A stretch of DNA of 64,000 nucleotides from a virus: IMG/VR virus record IMGVR_UViG_3300028805_000116. The stretch is one strand, 5' to 3'. Both the position numbers and the translations under genes were made by a program. Shown here in pieces: positions 1 to 51,758 of this stretch; within the stretch, counting starts at the first letter, position 1, and the number at the start of each line of letters is the position of its first letter. The notes under the pieces were generated by a model. The model did no database searches. It saw only the letters and a list, made by a program, of their open reading frames with translations, and was not told where the DNA came from.

Positions 1-843
1 AAAATTATATTTTTCTTTTATTTTAAAAGAATATCTTTTTAATTTATTATTAATATTTGTATTTATTTTATTATATTCTTTTAAATGTTTATTTTTAAAT
101 TCTTTTAAATTCTTTATATTATTATTATTTTCTTTAATTAATAATAATTTAAATTTATAATTTTCTTTATTTAATTCTTTATCTAATAATAGATTATAAA
201 TATTTTTTAATTCATCTTTAGTTATTTTATTATATTCTTTAATATAATCTAAAATATATTTATTATTAAAATTTTCTAAAAAATTACTTTTTAATTCTTT
301 AAAATTAAAAGTATTTAATTCATCTAAAGTTTTTAAATCTTTTTTAGAATATAGACTTTTTATTTTACTATTTAAATATTTTAGATTTAAAAAATAATCT
401 TTATCTAAAAAATTTAAAATAAAATAATTAATAATAGATTCATAAATACTTTTATCCATTGAATCTAGTTTTTTTCAGACTTTATCTATATATTTTTTAT
501 CATTTATTAGATTTATTTTATTTTCATCTAGAATTTTAATAAAATTTTCTAGATTATAAATATTAAAAAATTTATTTTCTAAATTTTCATCTATTAATTT
601 TTTTCTTTTTTCTTTATTTTCTTTAATATCTATTTTATTATTAATTAAATAATCTAATTCTATTAATTTATTAAAATTTTCTAAATTTTCTTTATTTTCA
701 TCTAAAAATTTATTAATATTTTTTTCATCTATTTTATTATATTCTTTTAGATCTATTCAATTTAAAGAATAATTAATTTTTAAATTAGATTTATATTCTA
801 ATAATTTAGAATTTTTAGATTTTAAATATTTTTTATCATACAT
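1..843 (-). CDS. Hypothetical Asn/Lys/Ile-rich protein, 3' part running off the left edge of the window. Region is ~12 % GC. In-frame TGA codons (reverse-complement 'tca') are read as sense.
   Basis: ATG at 841-843 on the minus strand. The frame stays open to position 1 only if TGA is read through. Composition is completely unlike the rest of the window. Confidence 0.35.
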
Positions 844-882
844 TTTTATAATAATTAAATAATAAAAAGTTTTTAAATAGTT

Positions 883-1107
883 TTAATTAGTTTTTAATAC
901 TTTAATTTTTTTAGATTTTTTATTCATATATTTATAATCTAATAAATATTTATCTATTATATTTATATTTATTAAATAAGTATTAAATAAATTTAAATAA
1001 TTTTTTTTATCTATCATTTTATTATTAAATAAAATTTTTAATTCTTTTATATCTTTTAAATAATCTTTTTTTAAATTATATAGATTTAGATATTTTTTAA
1101 TATTCAT
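883..1107 (-). CDS. Small hypothetical AT-rich protein (74 aa)
   Basis: ORF in the six-frame track ending in a genuine TAA. Same orientation and composition as the flanking AT-rich ORF. Confidence 0.35.
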   Translation of the reverse strand: MNIKKYLNLYNLKKDYLKDIKELKILFNNKMIDKKNYLNLFNTYLININIIDKYLLDYKYMNKKSKKIKVLKTN

Positions 1108-1435
1108 CTTTTTTAAATTAATTAAATAAAAATAAAATTTTCTAGAATAATAATAAAACTTTTAAAGAAAATAAAGTTTTTTTATATACTATATATTTTA
1201 ATATTTTTTTCATAAGTCAAGTATGAATAAATAAATATTATATCTGGATTATTTATATATTTATTATATCTAATTGCAAGAAAAAAAGCAAATTTTTATA
1301 GACTTTTTTATATTTAAAAATATTAATTCTAAACTAGACTTTTAAAAAATCTAAAAAGATTTTTTTCTAAAAAGATTATATTTTTAAATAGATTATTATT
1401 TTTATTTAAAACAATTCTAAAATATAATCCATCTA

Positions 1436-1478
1436 AAAAATAATCTATCTAAAAAATAATCTATCTAAAAATATTTTT
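1436..1478. repeat. Tandem direct repeat, 2 copies of aaaaaataatctatctaaa
   Basis: Two identical adjacent copies in non-coding AT-rich DNA. Confidence 0.6.
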
Positions 1479-1519
1479 TATTAAAATTTTTTTTTCTAAA
1501 AATAAAAACTTTTAAAGAA

Positions 1520-1800
1520 AAAAGACGGGATACAAGCACCCAAACCCCCCTATATGAGCTTTTTGTTGGGGTGTTATACCTTTCTTACAAAATTCACTCT
1601 TTCATAAAAACCCACTCTCTCAAAAAAATACTTTCTTTCAAAAATACACATCTCATCAAAAGAATATAACACCCAATAAAAAATAACCCATATAAAAAAT
1701 TCACTAAAATAGTGAACTTTTCAAAAAAGGCCCCATACATATTAAAAGGTACACCTAAGTAAAGGAGGGCCAATATTATATATCAATCTTTAAAAATGTC
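1520..1800. promoter_or_regulatory. Non-coding, comparatively GC-rich structured region with C/G runs, repeated ttcactc/cccactctc words and a perfect palindrome TTCACTAAAATAGTGAA (1708-1725). Candidate origin, att or operator region.
   Basis: No ORF in any code. Compositional break between the ~12 % GC flank and the ~33 % GC phage body. Inverted and direct repeats present. Confidence 0.35.
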
Positions 1801-1824
1801 AATACCTGTAAAAAGAGATAATAT

Positions 1825-1849
1825 AAAAAAGCTACTCAATGAGAGTAGC
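1825..1849 (-). terminator. Rho-independent terminator for the leftward operon
   Basis: Hairpin gctactc-aatgag-agtagc preceded on the plus strand by A6, which gives a hairpin followed by T6 on the minus strand. Confidence 0.45.
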
Positions 1850-1923
1850 GAATGAGGGATTTATCACATCCTGTATAAAGGATGCGGAATCTCTTTAAAT
1901 ATGGAAGAAACCTTTTTAAAGGT

Positions 1924-2160
1924 CTACTTCAGGGAAGCAAGATACTCTTCCCAAAAACCATTCTTTCAGAAACATAGAATATGTCTTTCACATCTTAAAC
2001 CATATTGTATGTAGTCATCTTCTATATCATCTATTAGATGTCGTCAGAATGATTGGAGGGTAATTAACGCATTTGTTAATTCTTCTGTTTCAACTATTAA
2101 ACTATCCTTTGTCTGAGAAAGGATTATAGTCTTATCAAAGTCTATTGTTCTCTCTGTCAT
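1924..2160 (-). CDS. Hypothetical protein, ~78 aa (MTERTIDFDKTIIL...)
   Basis: Minus-strand frame with ATG at 2158-2160 and TAG at 1924-1926. In-frame TGA read as Gly. Confidence 0.4.
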
Positions 2161-2178
2161 AGATAGATAGTTTAAGAA

Positions 2179-2958
2179 TTAAAATGCAGGTGTATAGGAT
2201 GATGATTTGTAATCACTATCATCTTTTAAATATTCTCAACCCTTGTAGTAGAGTTCAATCTCCTTATCAGGGGTAAACTTATCTTTCATAAGCTTATACC
2301 TCCTATAAGGTACACCATCACAATTACTATCCTTTTCAATTATTATGAATACATTAGATAGGTCCATTATCTTCTGAGTTCATTCCCAGGTTCAATGTCT
2401 ATTGGTGTGGTGTAATACCACTATAGCTATATCTAACTTTTGTGCTAACTCCTGTAATACAGCCATACATTTATTTTGACTCTCCCTAGCATCGTTAGAC
2501 ATATTGTTACCTATTCTAGAGAAGGTATCTATTACAAATAATTCGTAACCCATCATAGCCTTTTCATTTAGAAGGGTTTCTAAAGCATCTAATGAAATTC
2601 ATTGTGCATTATTGTAATAATCAAATTTCTTAAGCATAGTATTCACATAGTTTTGCATATCATTCTTTTCATAGTCTGATAGTTTGTTTAAATCTGTCAA
2701 AGCATCTTTACCTTTTCAATGGAACCGTAACCGTCTTGACTGTCGCATCGTCTCGATAGGAAATTCCAGGTTAATGTAGAAACCTTTTCTTCCTCTCTCA
2801 GCATTTTTACTAATTATATCCATTGCGAAGGTAGTCTTTCAAGAATTACTCTCAGCCACAATAGTGACTAATTCTCAGGACATAAAGCATCAGAAATCAT
2901 TAAAATTCTCTGATGGGTATATGAATCCTTTTTTTGTTTCAAATTGGTAGTCTTTCAT
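2179..2958 (-). CDS. RecA-family ATPase, Sak4-like, ~259 aa. Walker A VTIVAESNSGKTTFAMDII. Walker B LFVIDTF. Also IVVLHHTN.
   Basis: Hand translation of the minus strand. The glycine of the Walker A GKT is encoded by TGA. Bounded by TAA at 2971-2973 upstream and TAA at 2179-2181. Confidence 0.7.
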
Positions 2959-2984
2959 TTTTGTTGGTGGTTATGGGGTAAAAG

Positions 2985-3887
2985 TTATTTTATAACCAAA
3001 TTCACTCTACTTAATTCTCTTCATACATTATGAGCTATCTCTTTAAATTTACTCTCTCAGAACGCTTCCTTTAGTTCTGTACTTCTTTCTTTCATTTTGT
3101 TTAAGTCATCTTTATGCGTCATATGGTATTTGGCTATTTCATATAACCTATCATCCCATTGCCTATCTCAATCCCTATTAAATCCAGACAGATAGGTATC
3201 AAATTTAGGTCGGTATTGTGGGTCCTTTATTCTGTATTTAAATTCAAACTTAAATAACTTCTCATCATATAAGATATCCTGTAACTCCTTTTGAGAGAAG
3301 TTCATAGTATCAAAAAGTTTCCTAGATTTCTTTTCATCCTTTTTTATTCAGTTCTTATGATAGAAGTTTTTATATATATCTTCGAATCAAAGCGCGCTAC
3401 CAACATCATTATATAATCATTGTGTATTAGTTTGTTTAATGTCTTGTGTCTTTTCTTTACCTAAACCAGAAATAACATTAGACTGTGTAGTAGTGGTAGG
3501 TACACGAGATGCTTTAGCATCGAGTGTAGTAATATCATCACACCTTCCCTCACACTCCTTTTCATTATCATTATCATTTACATTATCATTATCATTATCA
3601 TTAGGTTTAGGTTTGGTTATGGTTTGGTTATGGTTTGGTTTTTGTGAGTTATTCCAGGTCTTAGGCGGTCTTCAACCTTTACATCAATTCATATACCTTT
3701 CATTGTTTGCATCTAACTGTGGTTTAATTAGAAGGAACATTCACATCGCAGGCCCATCTGTTTCTATTTCATTTCAATATAATCAATATTGACAAATCAT
3801 ATCAAAAAGTTTCCCTTTATCTTCATTTGTCAGAAATTTAGATGCCTCGTAGAAGCTCCTGTAAAAAACGAAACTCTCTCTCTCCAT
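2985..3887 (-). CDS. Hypothetical replication-associated protein, ~300 aa. N-terminal FYRSFYEASKFLTNEDKGKLFDMICQYGL motif. Internal low-complexity linker TKPKPNDNDNDNVNDNDNEKE.
   Basis: Continuous minus-strand frame from ATG 3885-3887 to TAA 2985-2987, with several in-frame TGA. Sits directly upstream of the RecA-like gene. Confidence 0.5.
3540..3660. repeat. Microsatellite-like tract (cattat)n followed by (ggtttggttat)n, embedded in the CDS above and encoding the ND-repeat linker
   Basis: Visible hexamer and 11-mer tandem repeats. Confidence 0.6.
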
Positions 3888-4141: not shown

Positions 4142-4492
4142 TGTAATAATAAATAAGTAATAAAAACGCAGTAAACAAAAAGCCCAACAAAGTCGTCGGG
4201 CACATTACACAAAATTCTCCACTACGTATTATAAGAGGTGTCCGAACTCTGTGTAATACGATGTCAGGCTTTTTGAATTTCTACACTATCCTATTTAGGG
4301 TAGAGAGAAAAAAATTCAAGAGAAATATTCCCCTGTATTTTTAGATTATATAAAAATGTCAAATTTTTATAACATTTTGTTAGGTCAGGTCTGATGTATA
4401 TTTTTTCGAAAATGTCAAATGAAAAATTTTTATAACACGAATAAAAAATATAATCTATTAATATAGAAACATATTTACTACCTATCATCACT
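4142..4492. promoter_or_regulatory. Divergent intergenic region between the leftward and rightward gene blocks. Contains two copies of aaaatgtcaaat(g)aaaaatttttataaca (about 4354-4380 and 4409-4438).
   Basis: Non-coding. Direct repeats lie between divergently oriented genes. Confidence 0.45.
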
Positions 4493-5440
4493 ATGTCGCT
4501 ATTCTCAGATTTTACTCAAGGAGCTATAATTCAAAATCCTAAAGCAACCTATAGTTATAAGAAGGCTTTAGAGATAAAGAAAGAAACTGAACCTGTAAAA
4601 ACCTGGAAAGAAATAAGAAATGAAATGAAAGAGAAACTTACCCCAGAAGAATATAAGAAACGACTATATAAAGAAACCTACCAAAGAAAAAAAGAAGATA
4701 TAGCTAAAAAATATCAGGAAAAGAAAGCCGAGGAAGAAGCTTATATTGAGGAAATATATAAAGAGGTATACGATATATTACCTGAGCCTCAGGATTATGA
4801 TGATATCTTTACACAAAAATATAGATGTGATGATATCGTAAAAGATAGTTACATTTTTTCTTGGTGGAGTTCTAAGTTGGCCCGTATGAATTGGAATTAT
4901 ACACCTAAACAAAAAACTCCATTTAGAATAAGTAAAAGGTATGGAATTGATTTCCCGATAAAAGCTTTAATGTGAATACAAGATAAGGCTTACAATTATT
5001 TAAAACCTCATTTAGAGGAGATAAGGAATTGTAAATATTACTTAAGTAAAAAGCAATATATTTATTCACCTATATATTACATTGATGAGCCATTAAGAAC
5101 GATAGCAGATAATTGACCAGTTAATACTGCTCGCATAATAAATGTAGCAGATTGAATGATTAGGTGAAAATTTATAGCATCTGAATTGTATCTATGAAGG
5201 AATAATTTTATCTTTTGAGATGTGCTGGTTACAAATACCTGAAATACATTTAGGATAGCCTTAGAAAATAACCTGCCTTGGCTAACTAAAGATACTGTAG
5301 AGAAAATACATTCCCTAAGAATGGACTGGTGGAAAAATAAATGAGAAAAAGCTCCACCAATATACATAGTGAATGATGCTTATTTAATCCAGATTCATCC
5401 AAATGAACGAGAAACTTTATATTATATTGTACCAACATAA
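4493..5440 (+). CDS. Hypothetical Lys/Glu-rich protein, 315 aa
   Basis: Track ORF 4493-4975 continues through 8 in-frame TGA to TAA at 5438-5440. The stop overlaps the next start (taATG). Confidence 0.55.
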
Positions 5441-6138
5441 TGCCTAAATATATACCATTAAAAAAATGAGAGAAATTCTGAAAGCTTATTGCTTTATGAG
5501 AATGCGAAAAGAGATTAATATGAAAACAATGAGCTTCTGCTCGATATGAGAAATGTAAATGTACTTGTAAAAAGTGAAAAGAATTACGAGTCGCAAGAAC
5601 ATATTTAAATACTGGCCATACTGTAAGTTGTTGATGTGCGAGGTGAATTCCAAAATTAAAACATTGAGACACGTGAAGTAAATTATATAAAATCTATATG
5701 ACCGCTAAATCTAGGTGTAATAACCCAACTTGCTATAAATATAAGCGATATTGATGAAGGTGAATAAAATTTTTACGAGATAGTTATGAAGATTTTAAGA
5801 GAGATATGTGAGAATGATATTTAGAGCACATAAAAAAATATTGAAAAGAAAATACCCAAATAGATAGAATAGATAATAATTGAAATTACTGTAAAGATAA
5901 TTGTAGACGAGTGACTTGTAAAGAAAATTCAAGGAATAGAAGGAGTAACCATTTAGTTGATTTTCGTGGAGAAAGAATTTCGCTAATAGAGGCTTACGAA
6001 AAAGCTTCTCCTAAAATATCTTTCCCAGTCTTTTTATCTAGAATCTATAATAAGTGATTAGATAAAAACGTAGAATTAGCTTTATATTGAACAAATAAAG
6101 AAATAAGAGACTTTTTATCAGTTAATAGTGAAAAGTAA
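5440..6138 (+). CDS. Hypothetical protein, 232 aa. Position just upstream of terL suggests a possible small terminase subunit.
   Basis: Frame open from ATG 5440 to TAA 6136-6138 when TGA is sense. Translationally coupled to flanking genes. Confidence 0.4.
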
Positions 6139-11600: not shown

Positions 11601-11733
11601 TAAATGAATATTTAAAGAAAAAATGAAAAACCTTAAAAATAACAACCTTAAGCCTGATACGGTAAATGCAGTAGCAGATACCTGAGCTTATGATGAGGTT
11701 GTATATAAGGTAAAAGAAGTTTTATGATGTTAA
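8665..11733 (+). CDS. Large hypothetical virion-associated protein, ~1022 aa. Portal or other head protein possible.
   Basis: Stop-free frame (TAA/TAG) from ATG 8665 (preceded by in-frame TAA) to TAA 11731-11733. Frame arithmetic is consistent at both ends. Dozens of in-frame TGA. Confidence 0.5.
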
Positions 11734-11743
11734 TATTAATTTA

Positions 11744-14700
11744 ATGGCAGTACAAGATTGTGATGATTTATCAAATATTATTGCTATATGAATATTGTCT
11801 TGAGATGATGATTTAGCTAAAGAGATAGTTAGGCTATCCACACAAAAGAGAGATTCGTTAGTTCGTGCTGGTAAACTTAAATGAGAAGATGCTGTGGAAG
11901 AAGCTACTTGACGAAGTGCTCACGAACTTGAATTAAAAGCCAATTCTGCTGATATAGAGCTCAGAGCTATTGTTCAAGCCAAAATCTTAACTTGAGAAAT
12001 TTGAAATGCGGAAGCGTATGTTGCTTTAGCAGAACAGATAACAAAGTCAGGATGAAGTATGTCTCAACAAATTAGTCTTTTAAATAAATTAAGAAGTGCT
12101 AAGGTTACAGATTTACAGGATATTGCTAAACTACGGTGATGAGCTTATAAAAATTATCCAGCTAAAGCTAAAAAAGAAATGGAAGAAGCTATAGCATCTA
12201 CTATTTCGGCTAACTATAGTATTAGAAAATATTCTGACTTTATGAGTTGAGAAGTTTCTGATTTAAAGACACAACTTAAAAATAAGAAGATAACTCAAGA
12301 ACAATATGAAGAGCAGATGAAATGACTCCATAAGAAGGTTATGGATAGAATAAACGCTTGAGAAAATCCAAAAGATTTTGTCCCTATTGATAAAGAATGG
12401 GATACTATAAAAAGAATTTACTCTACAGAGAATGTAGATTCTGATGCTATTACTGAAGTATTAGAATCCAGATGAAAAGCCTGGGTTCAATATGTAGCAG
12501 CTAGAGAATTATTAGCTGACTGAATGGTTGACGATGAATTACTTAAGGCTTTCGAGTCTTTGTTTGAAATGGATAATTTAGTAGGAGAATTAACTATTGA
12601 TGATATTGCTAAATTCTGAAAATGAGACTTAGATAAATTATTAGCCTTAGCCTTTACAAATACAGAACAATTATATAAAGATTGAATGCTAAGAGAGGCT
12701 TATAGAGCTAAACTTGTTGAGGTAACTTCTTGAATGAAAGTCTCTAAAGAGAATATAGCTAAAGCTACATCTATTATGAATACGATAGGTTTTGCTGAAC
12801 AATGAGCTTCCTTTGCTGATATAGCTACAGCTGACGCCGCAGCGCGTGCGGCTAGAAAGAGATGATTTAAGGTAAAAGATTGAAAAACTTTCTTGAATTC
12901 CTTAAAGTCATTCTTGAGAAAAGAAGAGGATAAAATGTTTGACTGACCTATTGTTATCGATTGAATAGAGATGACGGCTAAGGATATTATCCAAATTATA
13001 TACGATATAACTTGAGATGAAAATATCCTTAAGTTAATTAGAATAGGGTTTTATTCAGACGAAACTATATTATCTATTGCTACATCTAAATTGTTTAATG
13101 ATTCAGATGATGCTGCAAAGAAAATATTAAAATTATTTTCTAAGGCTTGAGATTGAAACACAATTGCCAATACTAGGAATATAGCTTTAAAAGCTATCAC
13201 TTGAGAAGAGATTAGAGAATGAGCAAAAATTGGATTCTTTAATTTTAGAAAAAATCTCTATTTTAAAGATGAATTAGATAGTGCTAAAGCTGAATTCTAT
13301 GATAAGTTAGCAGATAGAAATAAGATGAAGGTAGATTCATCTGATATTGAAGATATAACTCTAGATACTGATGATGCGGACAAAATAGCAGACAAACTAA
13401 GAAAATTTAAATGAGGGTATATTATTGTAAACGATGCTAGATATAAGACTAATAAGGCATTTAATGACGCTCTTAATAAGGTTAATAGTGAAATCAAGAA
13501 TGAAGAGGATAAGATAACTTGTATCTTTCCTAGATGATGAATGTCCTCTAGTTTTGTTATGGAATGAAAACAATTATACTTTAAAACTACAAACGCTAAA
13601 ATTTTCGATAATGTAGCTTGAACTATATCTATTCAATCTATGTGAAAATCTAGGCCGACAAGAGAAATTATTGCTAAAGCTTTTGAGGCTAAGACAGGTA
13701 AAAATGGAGATAAACTTAGATACCAGGCTAGTTATACTAAATGAGTATCTGATAGTCAATGAAGAAAACTTTCAGACCAGCAATACGAATATTTTAAAAA
13801 TTCTGTTGTGAGAGATGAGAATTGAAATTTAACCCCTGTATATCATTGAACTGTGGATAGATTCAATATCCCAGATATGTGAAAATCTAAGTTTGCTGCA
13901 CATTGACCTTGAATGTATTTTTCCACAAGTAGAGATGCTGCAGAAACATATTCTAGATTAAAAGATAATCGCTGGAACCCATTTAAGAAGCGTAGAATAA
14001 TAGAGGCATATCTTGATATTAGAAATCCTATAACTGAAGATACTGTTTGATTCGATGATGCTTGGTTAAATGAATTAGAAGCTCTATGATATATTATCGA
14101 TAGAGATATGGTTAAGAGACAGAAATGAAAGGTAAAAGATATATACAATGTTCTTTATATGTTTCAAGATAAAAAGAAGCAATGACAATTTGTTACAGAC
14201 TTTAAAAGGGTTACTTGATTTGATGGTATCAGAATAGATATGCGTTGAGATGAAAAGTATTGGATAGTATTTGAAGCTAATCAGGTAAAGTATGTAGATA
14301 ATAAATTACCTACAAGTAAGCCTAATATGAAGTATCAGGGAAGGGACAGTAATTTATTGTTTATAGAACAACCTACAGAAAAAGAAATAGATGATTACTT
14401 ATCTGAAAACAACGTGTCAGATATATTATTAAAGAGATTTTGAGAAGCTAAAAGTTTAGACGAGTGATTATTTATTACAAGGGATTGAAAAATAATTTCT
14501 TGAAGATATAGACCAGATATATATCCAGTTAATAAAATTTGGGATGATGCGTGATACAAATTAAATTTAGAACATCCTACTGCTATAGAAACTGCCGTAT
14601 TCGATTTGTGGAAAAATGTGGGGAAGGCTGACACGTATGAAACTGCATCTAAAATGCTTTTGGATAGAGCGATGGAAAAAGAATGATTAATCCGCATTCG

Positions 14701-17700
14701 CCCAAGAATTTTGTCTGATTGAAATGAGCTTATTATTACTATAGCTAGTAAAGAATTAAGCCCACAACAAAAGGCTGTTCTTTCGGAATATATTTCAAAA
14801 TTTAAAGAAGACTTTAGGGAATGAACTAGATGACAGATTACAGTAGAGGCCCAACGGACAGACAATAAGGGGATGTACCCTGGCGAGACTATTAATGTAG
14901 GCTTAAATACCAACATTAACGATATTGATAAAGTATTAAAAGAAAAAATAAATTCTCAAATTAGTGAGCATATTCCTGATGAACAAGTTTTAAAAAATAG
15001 AGCTAAACAAAAGGAGACTTATTGAGAAGGAATATCATTAATAAGGCTATGAGAAAAACAACCATCATTTATGAGACGTTTAGATGATTATGTTTCTCAG
15101 CAAGATGTAGCAGCAACTGATGCTATGAAGGCGCAGATGTTTACAAAAGATAGAACTGTTCAAGAAATAGCTGATGCTTATTGAGTATCTGTTGAGTTTG
15201 TAAAATGAACTAATATGATTGCTTGAGTTGAGGCTTATTGAGCGTATTGAGATGGTATTATCTATTTCACAGATATGGTTAAGGAGAGTACAGCTCCACA
15301 CGAATTGTTCCACGCCATATTTGATATGCACGTAGGTAAAGAACAACACGATAAATTACTCAAACAATGAAGTAAACTCTTCAATGTTAGTGAAGACGAA
15401 ATGGAGGAAATAATGGCAGATAGTTTTGCTCATTGGTTTAATACTTGAGAGTTTATTTACTGAGACGAACTTATAAAGGCTGCTAAAAAGAAGAGACCTA
15501 ATAAAGCAGAAAAATCATTTATAAATAAGGTATTAGAAGTCTTTAAAGACTTAAAGAAATGGTTATGATTAATGGATGACCATAGGGCTGAAGTTAAACA
15601 GATGTTCGACGATATGGTAAATATGAAATATCTACCAGACGCTTGAAAAGCTGTTGAAGCTACGGAAGCTATGATTAAATATAATGATGACTTGGAGAAG
15701 GCTGCTATAAAATACTACTGACAATTACTTTGAGATTACCAAGAAGACTTATCTCCAGAATATATTGAAAGGATTCGCACGAAACTTTCAGAAAAAACTT
15801 GAATTGATTTTAAATCTTTTGACCAAATCCAAGATAAGGCTCTACTATGGCAAAAGGTTGATGAAGCTTTTGTTGTAGATAAATTAGTTTCAGGTAGATA
15901 TGATAAAGAGATTGTAGATGTAGACAATTTAATTAATTGAATAGAGAAACTTACAGATAAAGAGTTAGAGGATGTTATATTCAAAGATTTATGAGTTTTA
16001 AGTAAATGATGAAAGGTTGTAGGTAGAGATACTATTGATGCAATAAGAAACGCATATATAGATTATAAAACTGCCTGAAATGCCGTAGATAGTTTAATAG
16101 CTAAAGGTAAACTTACAGCTTATATACATTGAACTGAGGCGCAGAATGTATCTATGGAAGATATAAGGGCAATATTCCAGAATTGAACATTCGCTCAAAA
16201 ATATAAAGAAATGTTCTTCCCTAATCAAAAACTTACAGCAAAAGAAGAACAAGAGATAATAAAACAAATCAATGATAATATATTTGATACTTTATCAATT
16301 CAGTTTGCTGAAAATTTAGTATCAGCTTGATATGAATTGCCTTTGATAAATATCAAAACATTTATGTATGACTATTTAAATTGAAAGTTAGACTTAAATA
16401 ACAAGTTTGTTGAAGCATTTCTTTATAAAAATAATATTCCATTTTCATCCGATTGATTAAGATGAATTGTAGATAGTTTAATGCCATCAGAATTAAACTT
16501 CAACTATAATTTCTCAAATTATTCATATTGACTTGGGCAAAGGCCTCACGTCTGAGAAAAGGCTGTGTTCAAGGAAGTTGATAATAGGTTTGTTATGGAC
16601 AGTTATTCAGCTTTAGCCTGAATAGAATTAGCTGCTAAGTGATGAATTCCTGAAAATGAGGAAAGGAAAATATTAGAAGAAATCCTTACTAAATATGTAA
16701 ACGAGGTAATTAAATGAGTCAAAGATTGAACGTTAGATTTCAAATGAGCTCAAGAATTAAAACAAGAAGTATGATATGCTTTAGATATGTTTGAACAGGA
16801 TATATTATTGCCTAAATATGGTATATTCTTATCTCCTCAAGAAAAGCAATGACTTATAGGAATGAAATATGACTTGCCTATTTGAGTAAAATGACAAAAC
16901 ATAACTAATGTGACTAAGCAGCTAAACGACATAAAACAGAAGCTCTTAAATAAATATGATAATACGCTATGAAGTATAGTAGAAAATAATGATATTAATG
17001 AAGCAATTCTTAAATGAATTAAAAGTGAAGATGAAAGAATACAAAAGAAAATAGATGCTAGAAGAGATATGTTAGCTGAGAGGTGATGAGTTATCAGAGA
17101 GGTTAATTGACAATATTTGGTATATAATGCTAAACAGGCATTAGAATATGCTTTAGAAGATTTGCCTCCAAGTATTAATTGATTAGAATGACTTAGAGTG
17201 CTATGAAAAGAATGAATTGATAAATTATCTAATCAACAGGCATATGCTTTACTTAGATATATAGAAGCTGCTAAAAGCCTAGATGCCACAGCTTGATATG
17301 CTATAGAGCTTATGTATAAACAAAACCCTATGCTACTTCAATATAATTTCTTTGAAGCATATAGAGTATGAGACCAATGAATTCCTAAAGCATTAGAATG
17401 AAATTCATTAAATTTTGACAAACTATTATCTAGATTAGAAAATACAGCTAAGCTTGATGAAACATCTAAGAAGAATATATTTGAATGAGTTATTAATAAG
17501 TTTAGAAAACAATGATATGTTACTAATGATGACTTAGATGATATTATTGATAAGTGAATAAAAGAAGCATACGCAACATATAAACAGTCGCATATGTCTC
17601 CTAAAGAGATAAAGAAAGCCGTAAATAAAATGAAGAATATTTACAAGAAAGCTTTCGCTCCTTACACTTATTTAAGAGATATTCCTTCTTGAGGAACTGT

Positions 17701-20700
17701 AGATTGAGTAGAATTCAGGAATATAAAATCTAAAGTAAGGGAGGCTATGAAACAGCAATACAATCAAGCTATGGAAGATTTAAAGTCGGTATGAATTACA
17801 AATACGGATTGAATTCAAGATACTATATATCTCACCCTTCCAACTTGACAGAAGATGTCTCTTAGAGATGCTTCTACATTAGATGTTGATAGTTGGAAAA
17901 AATGAATATTTAATGATGAAAGTGTTTATGTAGCTTGAGCTGATGAATTATGAGCTGCTTGAAAGAAGACTGTAGAAGAGCAAAAGGAGTTCAGGAAAAC
18001 TATGGTTAACGAATATGACTCGACATTACAGACTATACTGAACCAATCTCAGTTTATTAGCGAATCAGAAAGAGCATTACAAGGTTCTATTATGAGTGAC
18101 GTAAGGGCTATGTTAAGACAATGAAATCTTACAAACTTAATAGTAGATGCTTTAGATGCCGTAAGTTGACTTAATGAAGAGGCTGCTAGATGAATAAAGG
18201 ATTATCTTATCTGATGGAAGTGAAACGTTTCATTCTGAAAATGGAAGTCTTCTCAGATTATAGAGAGAAATGAATTAGTAAAGAAAGCATACGCACAATA
18301 TTATGCTATGGATTTGTCTAAACTTAATAAGGTAACTCCTTGAACAAAAGCAGAAGACTTAGCTTTAAGATTAGCAAGATACTTTAAAAATTTGGAAAGA
18401 TTATTAGGTAGTGCAGATTGAGTAACTTGATGTACTACAAGTAATCAATTAAATAGAGCGTTCTTCCATATAGGTGAAGTTGTTATGAATGTGGATAGTG
18501 TAAAGTGAATTTTCTGATTATTATCTGCGGTAGAACAAAACCAGATATTAAAGTTGTTTAAGTTTGCTAAGTGAGATTTAAGAAAACAAGCTGAGGTATT
18601 TATTCGTAAAGGTAAAGGTAATTTTACTGAGAGCCTTTGATGATATAGAGACTACGCAGAAGATATTAGTTGAATTACTAGAGATGAGTTCAATGAGATT
18701 TTCTGAACATCATTTAACGAGGACGATTTTAAGAAAATACTTCAATGACTTACAGGTTTCTCATTGGTATGATGAGTTACTAAACCTGTTATGAAAGCAT
18801 TGAATTTCTTGAGCTGAACTAATTTCATATTTAGAGCTGCAATGTCTTACCCTTGACAGCTACTTACAATTCCTTTACAAAGCACAGCATATTTCTTAAA
18901 ACAGATATGATTTGAAAGAGCTTTGGATATTGATAGCTTATCTGATATTGACGAAGTTAGAGTTCATTATTGAATTTTGGATTGAGCATATAACGAAATT
19001 AATTGGTTTAATAAAAAATATAGGGTTAGTCCAGATGATGTTAGAGTAGATAGTTACTATAATAGGTACTGAATCCCTGATGTAGAATGAATTTATAAAA
19101 CTACATCCATAGAGAGCAGTGATGATTACATAAATATGTATGCTAAAATTAATAATCAAACTGCATCAAGTATCAGTTCTACAAATAAATGGATAAGACA
19201 ACTAGACCCATATAAAGATAATGCAAATAACATTATAGACTGATTATTCGCTAGAAACTTTAAAAACATAGCGTTCCAAAAAGCTATAAGACAGAATGAC
19301 TTTATGCAATTTTCTTCAGCAAAAGAGTTCTTAGCCTTTATGGAAGACCCTACGGTATGAGGTTCTGTAAAGCAAAAACTATTAGATAGAGTTGCTGCTT
19401 ATTCAGGTAGAAACTTTAGAAATATCCTTTGATTAGGATTCTGATGAATTGATAGAGCTGTATGATGAAGTGGATTTGGAAACATAATGTACTGACTTAT
19501 GCAGATGTTTAACTTTAGATGAAGTTGGTGACAGAATATATTTAAACAAGCTTGAGCTGCTATTAAGACTTGACTAAAGATAGTGAAAGCAAATCCTTGG
19601 TTAAGTAGAGAATGAAGAGATGCCGTTGGTAGATATATAGCTACACAGCCAGAATTTATGAATTTTGTCTGAGCTTTATTTAATGACTTAAAACGAAGTT
19701 GGAGGTTACAAAGATTCCAAGATAATTGAAGATGGCCAGATAACGAAGATATGTATGTGACTACAGAGTTCTGAGATGTATTTGACGCATATTCAGCTTT
19801 AGATTTTATAGATTACTTAACAGAATCTTTAAGTCTTACTTCACAATTATTCCAGTGAATACAATCATTCTGACCTGCTAGACCAATATTAGAATGAGTA
19901 GAAAGCGCATATAAATCATATATGGACCCTACAATTTATAAAGATACATTCTGAATTTGAGCTTTCTTTAATGCTTTATGAAAGAACTTCTGAAGACAAT
20001 GGAAACCACATAACTGGATTGCTAAAGCATTATGAGCCTTAACTACAGATTGACCTGAGGCATTCTGGACATATGTACAAAATGAATGGTATAAATTATC
20101 ATTTGGTTCTGTAAGGTATATGGTTAATGAAGATAGTAATTCTTATGGATATACTTTCGAAATGACTTGACAACAATGATGAATTCCGTCTATTATAATG
20201 TGAGAATGAAAACAAGGTTCTGATAAAAATTTCTCTTATGAAATAGATAATACAGAGACTTGGGAGACTATAAAACAATTATTTAGTAGCTGAAACTCTT
20301 GGGACGATAGACTTACATATGCCTGAAATCTTTGAAAAGCATTTGTTAACTGAAGTCAGTTCTTTAGTTTATGGAAGAATGCTTGAAAGGCTTGGAATAG
20401 GAATGCTCCAAGTTATTATACAGCAGATGATTTAGCAGATGTTTTACAAAATACTGAAGCTTGATTAGAGTTTTACCAGAAATGAATTGTAACTCCTAAA
20501 ACAAAAGAAGAAGCTGAGATATTCTTTGATACAATATTAGAAAATTCTAAGTTCCGTCCTTGAAGTAGTAATTTTACTAAATCATTAATCAATTATGAGG
20601 ATTATTGACATATGAATGGTAAAGAGAAATGAAATGAAGCTGATGCTGAAATGGAACTTTGGCTAGACCATATGAAACACGTAACTGATGACCATTGAGT

Positions 20701-21952
20701 TATAAGAAAAAATTGAAGCGAGGAGACGGTTGACCCATCTTGGAATAAATTAATTAATGCTGTTAGAAGTTGAGCTTACAATGGAACTTATACAACAAAC
20801 TTGATTTATAACTATGCTAAGACTTGGTTAGACAACCATTCGTCTGACCCTAACTATCAGCTTTATCTTAAACTCTTATGACAATGACAAGCTCATAAAT
20901 TAATTGAGTCTACACAAGACGATATTATAAAAGCTTGGAATGCTGGTAAGAAATGAGTTGATAATAAATGGACGGAGACTGAGTTCAAAAACGCCTGATT
21001 AAGGAGAGATATGTTATTATCTATGTGAAACACTCCTTTACCTTGAGATACTGAAACATTCTTTGATAAACTACAAGTTCTAGATGAGGATAATGCCACA
21101 GTTGCAGCATTACAAATCATTCAGAACCAAGCAAAAGAATGAGATAGAAAAATTATTGATAAGTTCTTTAATGTAAAAGAGAATGATGATTGAACAAAGT
21201 CTGTTACATTAAGAAGACAATATGAAAGTACATTAACTCAGATTTGAGCTGTTGCTAAAGCTATTGATGAATGAAATCTTGAGAGGGCAATATCTGAATC
21301 TTCTATTCTTACAAATATGTATAAGAACCAAGACCCATCAGGAGCTGTAACTGCTACATTGATTGATAGTGTTGTTAATAGAATATACGATACAGATAGT
21401 TTTTCTCCTGAGCAAAAGCAAGAAGCTATTATAGCATTATTCCATCATAATAAAGAATTCATACAAAAGAATCCAGAAAAGCTAAGAGAATTATTATGAG
21501 ATGAATATGATACTTATGCTAATTATATGAATCAGATGCTTTATCAATGGGATTGAGCATTATTGTCTACATTAGAAAGTATGCAGACTAGCTGAAAAGG
21601 TTCATCTTGAACTGCTAAGAAAACTAAAGCTACTTCTAGTGAATTGAAGAAATTAGCCGCCTCTCTAGGTAATGAATGATGAGCTAGAGGAACTTGAACT
21701 GTATGAAGCACAAAATCTTGGGTACCTGTTATTATTAAGTGAGCAGACTTAGTAAAGGAGTTATGAGTAAAATGATATACTCCTAATAAGGTATCATTGT
21801 CTATAAATGCTTATAAGCCTAAGATAGATTTAAGTATAGCTAAAGATATTAACAGAAAAGTTAAATGACCTAAGACACAACAGATATCAAACAAAAAACA
21901 ATTAAGTAAACTTGAAGATAAGGTTACAAAAGCTACTGAAGCAGAAAGTTAG
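11744..21952 (+). CDS. Giant protein, ~3402 aa, polyvalent-protein-like. HExxH zincin-like motif PHELFHAIFDMH at about 15296-15330. H-Y-E-class ADP-ribosyltransferase-like motif VYHGT...GPGMYFSTS near 13850-13950.
   Basis: Single frame from ATG 11744 to TAG 21950-21952. Same frame mod 3 as track ORF 21317-21499 which lies inside it. No TAA/TAG over 10.2 kb, >150 in-frame TGA. Confidence 0.6.
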
Positions 21953-25722: not shown

Positions 25723-27228
25723 ATGGCAGGAACACAAAGTTGTAATCCTTGTGATGCTACTGGATTAGCTGAGAAAAGTGTAGCTTTTCAGGACATCCTA
25801 AACCCATTGTACGCTAATGGTAGAGTTCTCGAAACTTGGGGACAGTATGAAGATTTCCTAAGATATGAGACAATTTTCTTCGATGTAGTACCTCAAAAAG
25901 ACCCTACAACAGGAGAAGTATATGTAACTTATAAATTCAAAGATGGTTTAGCTGCTTCTAGCGAACTAACTTTGTTAGACAACGAATGTAAAGTTGGATG
26001 GTATGAACCAAAAATCTGTGGAGAAGAAACTGAAATTACTGAAGTTAACGGAAAAGAAATTACTGTTGCTTCTTTGGCAAAATTAGGTGGAGTTAACAGA
26101 GATTCTACAATCCTAGTTACTAGACAAGGAGGAAATCCAGTTAATGGACTTTACATTGAATCAGTTGCTTTAGTTGATGAAACTGACCCTAAAGGACCTG
26201 GAGTTATCACTTTGAAAGAAGCTCCTTCAGTTCAATTAGCCGCTGGTGACAAAGTTAGAAGAGGTGCTTACTTAAGAGACAGAAACTGTAATACAGAAAT
26301 CTTCAATCCAGTAAGACTTGGAGATATGGATTACTATTCAGCTTTCTTCAGAACTATCTCTATCTCTCACGAATTCAATTGGTGTGATTTGAACAAAGAC
26401 TACCTTATCTCTGGAGGAATCCAAGCTATCGTAGATGCTATGTTCAGAAAAGGAGATGTAGAAGCTATTAAAGAATTCTTACACGCTGCTTTCTATGACA
26501 GAAACATTCAAGTTGGTGATTATAAATGGGAGACTATGGGACTATTCCCAGCTCTTGCTGCTGCTCAAGACGGAGGACTTAAGATTGCTTTCGACCTTGA
26601 AGGATGTTGCGACCCAGCCGCTTCTGAATGTACAAATGCTAGACATCAAATTCAAGCTTTCTTAGATATCGTTATTAATAAAGCTATGATTTCTGGAATG
26701 TACAAAAACAACGTAACAGTTGCTATGAACAAAAAAGCTATGGAAGGACTTCATATGATGCAAGGATATTTCCAAGATTATGGAAATGTTGGATTCTTAG
26801 ATGGAAGCAATTATGACATCGATGTTGGATTACCAAGAATTAGATATGCTGGTATTACTATCACTTTCAAATATCTTCCAATCCTTAACGATTTCGACTT
26901 CTCTGTAATGTTGACAATCCCTGAAGAAAAAGTTGGAGTATTCCAACCTAAATATACTGTAGTTGATACTAACGGTAAAGTTGTACAAAACGCTAATATT
27001 AACGGATACATCTCAAAAGGAACTCCTATGTTGAGATACTTACCAGATAATCCTTACAACATCTGAGCTCAGCTTGGAGAATGTAACAAGATTGTTGGAG
27101 ATGTTAAATTCGCTGTAGTATGGATGTGAGTTGATAAAGGAGCTTACAGATTCATTAAGAACTTTGGAAAATGTGTATTGAACAGTTGTCCAGTATGCGG
27201 ATTAGATGATGTAGATTTCTTAGACTAA
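25723..27228 (+). CDS. Putative major capsid protein, ~501 aa
   Basis: Track ORF 25723-27066 has no TGA over 447 codons. It continues through 2 TGA to TAA 27226-27228. Follows the scaffold-like gene and is followed by a strong terminator. Near-absence of TGA suggests a highly expressed gene. Confidence 0.45.
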
Positions 27229-48820: not shown

Positions 48821-50239
48821 ATGAGCGATTGTAAATGTAAACATCCTTGTAATCCTTGCAATGATAATTGTCCAGATGATGAAGAAATTACTGAGGTAGA
48901 GCTATTAGATGCCGATGAATGCTCTGGTCCTTGCGGTGGATGTTGCTCTAGTTGATGTAAGGATAATTGCTGAATAAATATTCAATCTACAAATGAATGT
49001 CTTACTGTAGATACATCAGAATGTTGAGTGGTTAAACTTACAGTAGAATGTCCTAAACCTACATATGTAAAGGCTTGAGATAACATTACTGTAGAAGAAG
49101 AAACTCCTCCAAGCGACTGTTATTCAAATTGATGAGATTGTTGAATAAAGTGATGATGGAAGATAAGCTCTACAGATGAAAATGTTAAAGCTTGTGACAA
49201 TGATAGCACACCCTGAACATTAATAGATAAACTAGAAGAAGGACATTGAATAAATATTGACCCTATAGGGTGTGATTGAAGCAATAGTAAATTAAGAATT
49301 TCATTTGATGATAGCGTTATACCTCCTTGTCCAACTCCGCCTAGGATTATAATAAATGACCAGTCTGAGTTAATTGATGCTAGAGTTAGTTGAACAGACT
49401 GACATACTATAACTATTACAGATAAAGATAAGTGAGTATTCTATGCTAAGCTAGTATTAGCTGATAATCATATATGGACTGAAGCCACTTGAAAAGAATG
49501 AGTTTGGGAACAGTATCTATGAGAAAAGGCTGCAGTTAATTGGAAACCTGTTAGACAATCTTGATGAGCTTTAGATGTGAGTGCTTCTCTACGTAAGTGA
49601 TTAGCATTCTTTAACTGAACTGACGCTGCTCCAGGATTATGAATAATAGAAATTACAAAGAAATGATTATACCAGGTATGATTTTCTTGAAGTGCTGAAT
49701 TCTCTTATTGAGTACACGCATTTAGAGTACAGCTATATAAAATTCCAAAAGCAGATAGAAGTAAGACTAATACCATAATTGAGAGTAGATACTCTTGACC
49801 ACTAGGTTATGAACCTTGGCAGCCTGTTATAGGCAATGCAGGTAATATTAAATTTGTTTCTAATGTTACTTGATGATGATGAGAAAGTAGACCTGACGTA
49901 GAAAAATGAGAATATCATATGGATTATCCATTAATATGAGAAAAAACCGAAGTAGAATGACAGCATTGAATCTGATATTCTGCTTCGTTATGAGCCGTGA
50001 TGGATAGAGTAACTGTAACAGGTAATACTATAGTAGAATTGGACGAATGAGATAGGTTGCGTATTTGATTAAAAATGTCTACATCAATAATGCACTCTTG
50101 AGATATGATGGCTAAAATTCCTGCAAGTTTCTTAACCTGACATTTTGCTTTGCTATGAGCTGACGCAGGACAAAGTGATAATGGATGAGAAGCTTGATTC
50201 TCTTATTACGCTAACCTTATTCATCCTTTACTTTCTTAA
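48821..50239 (+). CDS. Cys-rich N-terminal domain + jelly-roll-like C-terminal protein, ~472 aa. Tail fibre/receptor-binding or lysis accessory candidate.
   Basis: ATG 48821 to TAA 50237-50239. Many in-frame TGA. Confidence 0.4.
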
Positions 50240-50243
50240 TAAC

Positions 50244-50274
50244 AAAAATCCCCTTTTCCGAGGGGATTTTTTTG
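50244..50274. terminator. Bidirectional rho-independent terminator (aaaatcccc-ttttccga-ggggatttttttg) at the junction of the convergent gene blocks
   Basis: Perfect GC-rich stem flanked by A-run and T-run. Confidence 0.65.
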
Positions 50275-50523
50275 TAAGCAAAATTCAATAGTTTTTGCTA
50301 GAGATATAACAAATGACTACAACAAACCAAACAATTTTGGATGATTGCAACCTATATATAATAAATTCCTAACGAATTGCAAGAGAAAAATTACATATAA
50401 CTTAAGAATAGACAAACTCATAAGAAAACTGTAATTGCTATACATAGTATAGAAAAGCTTTTCTCTAATTCTTTTACCTTCTTTTCTAGTTTAGAGGTTC
50501 TAGCTATTTGGCTTTCCAGAATT

Positions 50524-51102
50524 CTATCAAAGGAATTCTGCCTCTCATCCTGTAAACCCATACGTCATTCAATAATTTCAAACCTGTCTTGAGTTGCTGT
50601 CATTATTATCTTCATAAAGATTTAAATCTAGTATTGAGGTAATATTATTATCGTGATAAACATATACAGGCGACTTACAATATTCATCACTATCTACCGC
50701 CTCAGAGAACCAATAGAAGAAATCTCTGTCTGGGTATCTTTCTCTCAAAGAATGATATCCTTGTTCTGCACTTCAGAAGACTATCTCTGTATTAGGATTA
50801 ACCCTAAAGATAGAGTATTCTTCTGTAGCCCATAGGGTATTTGTATTGGTTTCTAATATTAGCAGACTACATTCTACAGATTCTTTTATATCTTTCAAGT
50901 CTTTTGTTGCGTTATATAATATATCCTGTAAGAATTCCTGTAAGTCACAAGTATCATATATTTCTCCAGATGGGAGATTATGTTCTATCTGGTTAATAAA
51001 GTAATCTATATCTTTCGTACTTCAGCAAGAGGCAATAATTAAATGGACATTACCTCCATTAATTTCTCTTATCTTAGGACGGTAATAACTTACCGCAGAC
51101 AT
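50524..51102 (-). CDS. Hypothetical protein, ~192 aa (MSAVSYYRPKIREINGGNVHLIIASCGS...)
   Basis: Minus-strand ATG at 51100-51102, TAG at 50524-50526, frame consistent. Confidence 0.4.
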
Positions 51103-51188
51103 TAATTTTTGTCATACGGTAAGTCAATCATCTGTAAAGATACCCCATTTACCTCTAATCTGTTTTCCTCCGATTAAAGTCATAATTA

Positions 51189-51701: not shown

Positions 51702-51758
51702 TTATTTTATTTTTATTAAACTAAATAATAAGCATATTGCTTTAAATCTTCGCCTTTA

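What the first reader, a model, noticed from the sequence alone, without database searches (positions are those of the whole stretch)
1..1850. Abrupt compositional boundary: a ~12 % GC flank with code-25 ORFs abuts the ~33 % GC phage body through a structured non-coding region
Positions 1-1500 are almost pure A/T, yet they encode long minus-strand Asn/Lys/Ile-rich ORFs that also need TGA read-through. Positions 1520-1800 are non-coding with C/G runs, a perfect 17-bp palindrome and a terminator. This could be a prophage-host junction (att region), a genome terminus, or a hypervariable accessory island inside the phage.
Basis: seen in the sequence. Interest (0 to 1): 0.55.

Follow-up and report, generated by a model that had tools for sequence, protein, structure and literature searches.

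The report
Ultra-AT-rich gene cassette inside phage
The 9 %-GC block at the left edge of this window is not a host junction or a genome end. It is a real, self-contained pair of protein-coding genes sitting in a fixed, swappable slot of a TGA=glycine phage, just after a strongly conserved non-coding control element of unknown function.

Summary
Positions 1-1500 are 9.1 % GC, against 32.4 ± 1.9 % for the rest of the window. The change point is at base 1523.

The AT block encodes two real minus-strand genes.
- ORF A: 883-1107, 74 aa.
- ORF B: 1-843 in the window, 363 aa in full. Its GC3 is 2 %, and its only two Gly codons are TGA.

TGA = Gly (code 25) is shown directly by Walker-A glycines and by a TGA/GGG exchange within the ORF B family.

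Independent assemblies carry the identical junction. Related phage contigs (L008, L010, L018, L009) span the slot, with normal-GC phage genes on both sides. The att-site and genome-terminus readings are therefore not supported. The "accessory island inside the phage" reading is supported.

The boundary coincides with a conserved element:
- an operon terminator;
- the only consensus sigma-70 promoter in 64 kb;
- a roughly 250-nt leader with a palindrome and iteron-like repeats;
- an invariant 37-nt C-run/G-run motif;
- a weak hairpin followed by a T-run.

This element precedes genes of 9-35 % GC in phages with three different replication modules.

The function of the proteins and of the element is unknown. 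A transcription-activated origin and a regulatory leader are the leading ideas.

The parts
1..843 (-). ORF B, first 281 of 363 codons (ATG at 843-841). It runs off the window. A K/N/L/I/Y/D/E-rich protein at 9.2 % GC, with two in-frame TGA (Gly) codons.
   Evidence: The full gene is in L001 10265-11356. Homologues are P0002-P0013.
883..1107 (-). ORF A, 74 aa, no TGA. It lies in the same frame as ORF B, separated from it by one TAA and 13 codons.
   Evidence: the exact protein is present on 4 contigs. A 66 %-identical homologue follows the motif in L012.
1108..1523 (.). AT-rich intergenic stretch (about 11 % GC). It holds a 16-nt unit x3.5 (1416-1471), a 17-nt unit x3.1 (1352-1404) and promoter-like AT sequence.
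   Evidence: Other loci carry their own roughly 16-nt tandem units at this position.
1518..1541 (-). Weak hairpin GGGTGCTTGTATCCC followed by GTCTTTTTT. It looks like a terminator. The GC change point (1523) falls at its T-run.
1539..1575 (-). Invariant 37-nt motif AACACCCCAACAAAAAGCTCATATAGGGGGGTTTGGG.
   Evidence: Unique in the window, with 0 expected by chance. It is present in 8 JGI contigs and several Logan contigs. The 82-column alignment holds 29 invariant columns among 10 loci.
1595..1666 (.). Degenerate direct repeats with a period of 18 nt (or 36 nt), 3-4 copies, iteron-like. They are bracketed by the 10-bp inverted repeat 1569-1578 / 1665-1674.
   Evidence: Analogous arrays occur in relatives: 33-nt x4 in L010 and about 31-nt x3 in L013.
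1700..1716 (.). Interrupted palindrome TTCACT-N5-AGTGAA (7-bp arms in the window). It looks like an operator.
   Evidence: unique in the window. The arms are conserved and the centre differs in L008 and L011.
1729..1771 (-). 5' part of the putative leader: GGCCC...GGGCC stem followed by T6.
1775..1802 (-). Sigma-70 consensus promoter TTGACA-16-TATAAT (12/12) with a TG-extended -10. It points into the leader and the island.
   Evidence: It is the only exact TTGAC[AT]-N16-18-TA[TC]AAT in 64 kb on either strand. It is conserved in L008, L012, L013 and L014.
1822..1849 (-). Intrinsic terminator that ends the leftward replication operon.
1924..2160 (-). 78-aa ORF of unknown function, the last gene of the replication operon.
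   Evidence: No Pfam or PHROG match.
2179..2958 (-). AAA_25 / DnaB_C-like ATPase, 259 aa.
   Evidence: PF13481, E = 2.6e-13. Its Walker-A Gly is TGA.
2985..3887 (-). DUF6291 protein, 300 aa. A recombination junction with the L001 backbone lies at 3592-3632.

Best explanation
**What it is (shown).** The 9 %-GC block is an internal accessory gene cassette of a code-25 (TGA = Gly) phage. It resembles a 'moron': a small unit with its own terminator (an own promoter is only inferred) and a composition foreign to its neighbours. It occupies a fixed slot between the replication module (DUF6291, AAA_25, a 78-aa gene) and the next block of leftward genes.

**The element that opens the slot (anatomy shown).** Reading on the minus strand, the order is:
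1. the operon terminator;
2. the only consensus sigma-70 promoter in the window;
3. a roughly 250-nt untranslated leader carrying a palindrome and 3-4 iteron-like repeats;
4. an invariant 37-nt C-run/G-run motif;
5. a weak hairpin and a T-run.

GC falls from 31 % to 9 % within a few bases of that T-run. The compositional step is therefore the seam between two independently evolving modules.

**The cassette (shown).** It carries ORF A (74 aa) and ORF B (363 aa). In the relative L001 it ends in a 14-bp AT hairpin terminator, followed by tandemly repeated AT-rich promoter-like sequence.

**Inferred.**
- ORF A and ORF B are expressed early, from the strong promoter by read-through of the weak hairpin, from AT-rich promoters inside the island, or both.
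- ORF B is a basic, all-helical protein, possibly nucleic-acid binding.
- The cassette's GC is held low by a force that acts on the cassette itself, not on the backbone. Every ORF B-family member has 9-26 % GC, whereas the phage backbone next to it, where measured (L001, L006, L018), is 31-36 %.
- The conserved element most likely serves the DNA or its transcription. It does not encode a protein.

**Why contigs break here (shown anatomy plus inference).** The low complexity and the repeated promoters explain the assembly breaks.
For: **The junction is real, not a chimera.** Window 1-3590 is 100 % identical to ENA contig k141_1027000. Two Logan assemblies (SRR9006654 and SRR9006655) match at 100 % across the boundary.

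**Other contigs span the slot.**
- L010: the island is about 1.9 kb at 7-19 % GC, then GC returns to 38 %.
- L008: about 1.2 kb, then 40 %.
- L018: 7-20 % GC between 31 % and 40-47 %.
- L009: 16-27 % for about 600 nt inside a 76-kb contig.
- L031 continues from an ORF B homologue into the same ThiF-like gene block seen in L009 and L018.

**The ORFs are real.** See the shuffle test, the codon-position GC gradient, 12 cluster representatives with conserved blocks, and the conserved TGA site that is GGG in L030.

**The element is conserved while its neighbours are not.** The 82-column motif alignment holds 29 invariant columns. The upstream replication modules are of three non-orthologous types. 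The downstream genes belong to at least three families, with GC from 9 to 35 %.

**Transcription signals.** Promoter and upstream terminator. Cassette terminator and the repeated promoter-like tail.
Against: - No relative with an empty slot was found. The classic test for a moron, that the flanking genes are adjacent in a related phage, is therefore not met.
- No promoter with good consensus was found immediately upstream of ORF A.
- The far boundary of the island in this exact lineage was not recovered. L001 stops 166 nt after ORF B, inside a 45-nt repeat.
- Nothing indicates what the proteins do. There is no Pfam, PHROG or PDB match, and the AlphaFold2 model has pLDDT 50.
- Why the cassette is so AT-rich is not explained by any test run here.
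Confidence: 0.75

Rival explanations
1. The non-coding element plus the AT block is the phage replication origin. Transcription from the strong promoter activates or primes replication. The G6-T3-G3 run in the transcript stabilises an RNA-DNA hybrid. The AT-rich DNA just downstream is the unwinding zone, and the genes inside it have been dragged to extreme AT content.
For: - The position is right: immediately after the helicase-like and organiser-like genes.
- There are 3-5 iteron-like repeats in every locus.
- There are 2-3.5 tandem AT-rich units of about 16 nt right after the motif.
- The promoter is unique in the window.
- The motif stays invariant across phages whose replication proteins differ. 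That fits a part read by host RNA polymerase or by nucleic-acid structure.
- From background knowledge: T4 ori(uvsY)/ori(34), the T7 primary origin and ColE1 RNA II all use a promoter followed by an unwinding region. Mitochondrial CSB II is a G-run followed by TTTGG.
Against: - L013 and L014 carry the same element followed by 33-35 % GC DNA, so extreme AT content is not needed for the element.
- L006, L009 and L010 show no consensus promoter.
- An unwinding element needs tens of bases, not 2 kb.
- The repeats do not co-vary with the type of replication protein.
- No skew evidence is usable, because gene orientation dominates the skew.
Confidence: 0.3
2. The 1520-1802 element is a regulatory leader or small-RNA gene. 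A strong constitutive promoter makes a 150-250-nt RNA that stops at the hairpin and T-run. A factor binding the repeats decides whether transcription reads through into the cassette, in the style of an attenuator or the lambda pR'-tR' arrangement.
For: - Promoter and T-run bracket a unit of 147-251 nt in five loci.
- The window RNA folds better than shuffles (z = -3.0, with 0 of 200 shuffles as good).
- The motif offers competing pairings: CCCCAA with TTGGGG, and the G-run with the terminator stem.
Against: - No base pair shows covariation: 0 of 8 pairs.
- Minimum-free-energy structures differ between loci.
- There is no Rfam match.
- The hairpin has only three invariant G-C pairs in the consensus fold.
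Confidence: 0.3
3. Physical genome terminus. The AT block lies at the end of a linear or terminally redundant genome.
For: In the long contigs the slot lies near a contig end. This holds for the 110.6-kb and 80.5-kb ENA contigs, for the 76-kb JGI contig and for the window itself.
Against: - The break points are scattered over more than 1.5 kb.
- L001 ends inside a 45-nt repeat of period 70, which is typical of a graph tangle.
- L008, L010 and L018 run straight through.
- The other end of the 110.6-kb contig is cut inside a gene and shares no terminal repeat with this end.
Confidence: 0.07
4. Prophage-host junction. The 37-nt motif is an att core and the AT block is host DNA.
For: - A short, invariant core flanked by locus-specific repeats resembles the anatomy of attP.
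- One relative encodes a tyrosine integrase.
Against: - Phage genes lie on both sides in the spanning contigs.
- No known host approaches 9 % GC (background knowledge).
- The island shares code 25 with the phage.
- The integrase is 8 kb away and has its own repeat-rich gap.
- No genome in the species-representative collection holds the core.
- The repeats on the two sides of the motif are unrelated to each other.
Confidence: 0.03
5. Assembly chimera or low-complexity artefact.
For: Extreme AT content and tandem repeats are error-prone for short-read assemblers.
Against: - Four assemblies from at least three samples give the identical junction.
- Homologous junctions exist in other phages.
- The ORFs are conserved at the protein level.
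Confidence: 0.02

Closest known systems
Phage 'morons' (Hendrix/Juhala concept; cited from background knowledge)
   Same: - It ends in its own intrinsic terminator; an own promoter is only weakly indicated.
- It lies between conserved blocks.
- Its base composition is clearly different from its neighbours.
- The contents of the slot differ among related phages.
   Different: - No relative with an empty slot was seen.
- The compositional offset (9 % against 32 %) is far larger than usual.
- It persists across a whole gene family, so it does not look like a fresh import that is blending in.
- The slot is defined by a conserved non-coding element.
Transcription-activated or R-loop origins: T4 ori(uvsY)/ori(34), T7 primary origin, ColE1 RNA II, mitochondrial CSB II (background knowledge)
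   Same: - A strong promoter points at an AT-rich region next to replication genes.
- A G-run followed by T-run and G-run lies in the RNA-like strand, just before the AT-rich DNA.
   Different: - No hybrid or priming has been shown.
- The AT region is 2 kb long and coding.
- Some relatives lack either the promoter or the AT-rich DNA.
Iteron-type origins (lambda ori, P1, pSC101; background knowledge)
   Same: An array of 3-5 repeats of roughly 18-33 nt lies beside AT-rich DNA, close to the initiator and helicase genes.
   Different: - The repeats do not track the replication-protein type.
- No DnaA boxes were identified.
- The array is transcribed from a strong promoter.
Code-25 phages of Absconditabacteria and Gracilibacteria (PMC10746230)
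   Same: In-frame TGA is dense and genes are unreadable in code 11. TGA = Gly is confirmed here at Walker-A sites.
   Different: A term search of that paper for 'GC content' and 'AT-rich' found no occurrence. The portal protein here has no tblastn match in GenBank phages.

Membership tests
Phage moron | Base composition distinct from the flanking phage genes | tested here: met
   9.1 % against 32.4 ± 1.9 % GC, with the change point at 1523. The same holds in L010, L018 and L008.
Phage moron | Own factor-independent terminator | tested here: met
   A 14-bp hairpin and T-run lie after ORF B in L001. Equivalent hairpins occur in L005, L007, L017, L018 and L031.
Phage moron | Own promoter | tested here: inconclusive
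   Only 9/12 consensus matches occur inside the island. L008 has a clear second consensus promoter before its slot gene. The strong promoter at 1802-1775 lies upstream of a weak terminator.
Phage moron | Flanking genes are adjacent in a related phage (empty slot) | tested here: not met
   All 12 loci examined hold some ORF in the slot.
attP / prophage junction | One side of the core is host DNA, and the core is present in host genomes | tested here: not met
   Phage genes lie on both sides. The genome-collection scan gave one chance terminator.
attP / prophage junction | Integrase gene adjacent | tested here: not met
   No integrase was found in the part of the window that was annotated. In L001 it lies 8 kb upstream.
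Genome terminus (cos/DTR) | A fixed physical end shared by independent assemblies, or a terminal repeat | tested here: not met
   The ends are scattered. There is no suffix/prefix overlap in the 110.6-kb contig. Read-level data are not available.
Transcription-primed (R-loop) origin | Promoter directed at an unwinding element | tested here: met
   The promoter is at 1802-1775(-). AT-rich DNA with tandem 16-mers begins about 245 nt downstream of the start site inferred from the -10 box (~1768).
Transcription-primed (R-loop) origin | Persistent RNA-DNA hybrid and a primer 3' end at the origin | not testable with these tools
   This needs DRIP or primer mapping.
Structured ncRNA (any Rfam family) | Match to a covariance model, or covarying base pairs | tested here: not met
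   No Rfam match. 0 of 8 consensus pairs covary. Folds are not conserved between loci.
Genetic code 25 | TGA occupies conserved glycine positions | tested here: met
   Walker-A glycines are TGA. A TGA/GGG exchange occurs at a conserved ORF B-family site.

The most novel reading that the evidence does not exclude
The invariant C-run/G6-T3-G3 motif, together with its strong promoter, is a new type of transcription-primed phage replication origin. In this reading the nascent RNA forms a hybrid at the G-run, as at mitochondrial CSB II or ColE1. The adjoining cassette is kept at 9 % GC because it doubles as an extended easily melted zone. A protein-coding gene would then have been pushed to a nine-letter amino-acid alphabet by selection on its DNA, not on its product.
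Probability: 0.12. Interest if true: 0.7.

Novelty: new variant of a known kind. Interest (0 to 1): 0.45.

Why it matters
**Practical value.** It explains why assemblies of these code-25 phages break at one place. It also warns that a sharp GC step need not mark a host junction.

**A natural example of composition limits.** ORF B is conserved at 9.2 % GC and GC3 of 2 %.
- It lacks Ala, Cys, Pro, Gln and Trp altogether.
- It uses the reassigned TGA as its only glycine codon.
- It therefore shows how far composition can drift in a working gene, and how a stop-codon reassignment supplies an AT-rich codon under AT pressure.

**A handle on replication or early gene control.** The 37-nt motif stays invariant across phages that have swapped everything around it. 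It offers a way to study replication or early gene control in phages of uncultured Absconditabacteria and Gracilibacteria.

Tried and rejected
- **tRNA/tmRNA scans.** The window and seven related loci gave none.
- **Rfam.** Nothing at gathering threshold on 64 kb, and only noise at E <= 10 on 1-2400.
- **IMG/VR.** A protein-based scan, a 24-base motif pattern and a 17-mer core found no relative. The 11 hits to the 17-mer are chance matches.
- **Species-representative genomes.** One hit, a generic terminator in Paenibacillus.
- **Micro-ORF across the motif (ITPQQKAxIGGFG).** Rejected. The frame closes after three codons in L006, L012 and L018. In four loci a stop lies two codons upstream with no start codon.
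- **Function of ORF A, ORF B and the other slot proteins.** No Pfam or PHROG match. A PDB profile search gave only coiled-coil noise. The AlphaFold2 model had pLDDT 50 and pTM 0.27, so no fold search was run.
- **RNA structure.** No covariation, and folds are not conserved between loci.
- **Homology among slot proteins.** ORF B matches the L008 protein only weakly (E = 8e-8 in a tiny database). It shows no link to the L013/L014/L009 family or to the L010 protein.
- **Mutational direction from the window-versus-L001 comparison.** Impossible. The two are identical over 1-3590, and all differences sit at one recombination junction.
- **Circularity of the 110.6-kb contig.** No end overlap.
- **GC skew as an origin marker.** Confounded by gene orientation.
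Full report
**1. The observation.** The window is a TGA-recoded phage.
- With TAA/TAG as the only stops, ORFs of at least 100 codons sum to 25,867 codons. In code 11 they sum to 5,135.
- A portal protein, an HNH endonuclease, a RusA-like resolvase, an AAA_25/DnaB-like ATPase and a DUF6291 protein are recognised.
- TGA is glycine. The Walker-A glycines of the AAA_25 protein (SGKT) and of the 717-aa TerL-like protein (GPRGGGKS) are TGA codons. TGA makes up 5.5 % of codons, GGN 2.8 % and TGG 1.1 %.

Against this body of 32.4 % GC (sd 1.9 % for 1500-nt windows, minimum 28.1 %), positions 1-1500 are 9.1 % GC. A two-segment likelihood places the change after base 1523.

**2. The AT block is coding.** On the minus strand lie ORF A (883-1107, 74 aa) and ORF B (ATG at 843, running off the window).
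- The full ORF B is 363 aa in a related contig (L001 10265-11356).
- The open frame is 376 codons long, against a mean of 65 and a maximum of 142 in 500 shuffles of the region.
- GC falls by codon position: 19 / 7 / 2 %.
- The protein lacks A, C, P, Q and W. It is 61 % F/Y/M/I/N/K and 1.7 % G/A/R/P. Both of its glycines are TGA codons.
- It has homologues at 45-60 % identity.
- A profile search of 1.84 billion representatives finds only 12.
- At a site conserved in the family, eight members including the window's lineage use TGA and one uses GGG. The island therefore shares the phage's code.
- No member matches Pfam, PHROGs or any PDB chain beyond coiled-coil noise.
- The structure model is all-helical but unreliable, with pLDDT 50.

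**3. The non-coding part, read on the minus strand.**
- An intrinsic terminator (1849-1831) closes the replication operon.
- Next comes TTGACA-16-TATAAT with a TG-extended -10 (1802-1775). It is the only exact consensus promoter on either strand of the 64 kb.
- The roughly 250 nt that follow contain four features:
  - a GGCCC...GGGCC stem with a T-run (1771-1729);
  - the interrupted palindrome TTCACT-N5-AGTGAA (1716-1700);
  - 3-4 degenerate 18-nt repeats (1666-1595), bracketed by a 10-bp inverted repeat;
  - the 37-nt sequence AACACCCCAACAAAAAGCTCATATAGGGGGGTTTGGG (1575-1539).
- The motif runs into a weak hairpin and T-run (1541-1518).
- The GC change point sits in that T-run.
- Just beyond it, the AT-rich spacer holds 3.5 copies of a 16-nt unit (1416-1471, 95 % matches) and 3.1 copies of a 17-nt unit.

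**4. Related sequences.** Exact-protein look-ups and one pattern scan recovered the same junction elsewhere.
- Window 1-3590 is 100 % identical to one end of the 110,628-bp ENA contig k141_1027000. All 14 differences are packed into 3592-3632, inside the low-complexity linker of DUF6291. Beyond that point the two backbones share no DNA similarity.
- Two Logan assemblies match the window at 100 % across the boundary.
- The 37-nt motif occurs in eight JGI metagenome contigs and several Logan contigs. The 82-column alignment of the motif and its flanks holds 29 invariant columns among ten loci.
- The sequence upstream of the motif belongs to three non-orthologous replication modules:
  - DUF6291 with AAA_25;
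  - a primase-helicase with an HTH protein;
  - a DUF6291-like protein with DnaB and a primase.
- Downstream, every locus has its own roughly 16-nt tandem units and then a gene. That gene belongs to the ORF B family, to a second family (L013, L014, L009) or to none (L010).
- The GC of the slot gene runs from 9 % (window, L007) through 11, 16, 18, 20, 23, 26 and 28 % to 33-35 % (L014, L013). Backbones stay at 31-36 %.

**5.
- *Internal island.* L010, L008 and L018 cross the whole island and return to 38-47 % GC phage genes. L009 does the same inside a 76-kb contig. L031 leads from an ORF B homologue into the same ThiF-like gene block found in L009 and L018. The block is therefore internal.
- *Terminus.* Contigs do tend to stop here, but at scattered points. 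L001 stops inside a 45-nt repeat of period 70. L010 has four copies of a roughly 105-nt promoter-like unit at the equivalent place. This is what a short-read assembler does with low-complexity repeats, and it is not a physical end. The other end of the 110.6-kb contig is cut inside a gene and shares no overlap with this end.
- *att site.* Several findings argue against it: phage DNA on both sides, the shared genetic code, the absence of the core from 185,579 representative genomes (one chance terminator), and an integrase 8 kb away with its own repeat-rich gap in L001.

The third alternative, an accessory island inside the phage, stands.

**6. How it probably works.**
- *Shown.* This is a module seam at a conserved non-coding element, followed by a gene unit with its own terminator and a composition of its own. 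The closest named concept is the phage moron. That membership is incomplete, because no empty slot was seen and no good promoter lies directly before ORF A.
- *Inferred.* The genes are expressed from the strong promoter through the weak hairpin, from AT-rich promoters inside the island, or both. ORF B is a basic helical protein, with net charge about +21 from 78 K/R against 57 D/E.
- *The conserved element.* I could not decide between two models. In the first it is a transcription-activated origin. The case for this is: promoter, then iteron-like array, then a G-run in the RNA-like strand, then AT-rich tandem units, all beside the helicase gene. The architecture is known from T4 ori(uvsY), T7 and ColE1, and the G-run resembles mitochondrial CSB II (background knowledge, not tested). 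In the second model it is a leader or small RNA with a conditional terminator.
  - Against the first: L013 and L014 have the element without AT-rich DNA, and three loci lack a consensus promoter.
  - Against the second: no pair covaries and folds differ between loci, although the window RNA folds better than shuffles (z = -3.0).
  - A peptide reading of the motif was rejected.
- *Why the cassette is so AT-rich.* This remains open. Low GC is a property of the whole ORF B family, and the backbones measured beside it (L001, L006, L018) are 31-36 %. A cassette-specific force is therefore more likely than a single recent import. Candidates are selection on the DNA, transcription-linked deamination, or residence in an unseen ultra-AT donor pool. 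No test here separates these.

**7. Verdict.** The finding is real and its third interpretation is correct. It is a new variant of a known kind: an accessory cassette with deviant composition, taken to an extreme, placed behind an undescribed conserved cis-element in a phage group that IMG/VR pattern scans and a portal-protein tblastn against GenBank phages did not recover. Interest is moderate. The extreme gene composition and the invariant motif are worth a follow-up, but no new mechanism is demonstrated.

Noticed in passing
window 25723-27228 (+): This 501-aa ORF is possibly the major capsid protein (position and size only; no Pfam or PHROG match). It uses 2 TGA against 44 GGN glycine codons. 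Most of its large neighbours use about as many or more TGA than GGN (for example 210 against 47 in the 3,412-aa ORF). The gene either avoids the reassigned codon or has a different origin.
   Followed up: no
window 3592-3632: This is a recombination junction inside the Asn/Asp-rich linker of the DUF6291 gene. Left of it, the window is 100 % identical to ENA contig k141_1027000 for 3,590 nt. Right of it, there is no DNA similarity.
   Followed up: partly
window 49362-64000 and L033: The same 110.6-kb ENA contig carries window 49362-64000 at 100 % identity at its other end. It has about 43 kb more DNA than the window between the two shared segments, including an integrase and an HTH module. The window's phage is either a shorter variant, or one of the two assemblies is composite.
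   Followed up: partly
L033 527-687 (about 2.2 kb beyond the window's right end in the relative): Two adjacent tRNA genes lie here: tRNA-Trp(CCA) and a tRNA with an unassignable anticodon loop. The window itself has no tRNA.
   Followed up: no
window 62230-62960 and 61844-62065: The element ATAATATAAAAGTCTGAT occurs four times, each just upstream of a small minus-strand gene. A 27-nt element occurs twice. Together they suggest a family of repeated promoter or ribosome-binding-site cassettes in the early region.
   Followed up: no
L009 6702-8619, L018 7336-8037, L031 4795-6764: In the relatives, the gene block downstream of the slot includes a ThiF/E1-like protein (Pfam hits in L018 and L031; by eye in L009). 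In L009 it is followed by a 425-aa protein with an HSHH...S..D motif that looks JAB/MPN-like. The JAB assignment was made by eye only.
   Followed up: no
window 11714-21952 (+): A single 3,412-codon ORF with 210 in-frame TGA codons. It was not annotated.
   Followed up: no
window 1133-1174 and 1482-1523: A 42-nt direct repeat (71 % identical) brackets the AT-rich spacer that carries the tandem 16-mers. The copy next to the motif is also conserved in L008. This could be the trace of an insertion or duplication, or only low-complexity similarity.
   Followed up: no
window 5341-6138 (+): An HNH endonuclease gene (PHROG 374, E = 2e-42) overlaps the start of the TerL-like gene. This arrangement is typical of cos-type packaging, which would place the packaging site near 4200-4450 and not in the AT block. 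The packaging inference rests on background knowledge.
   Followed up: no
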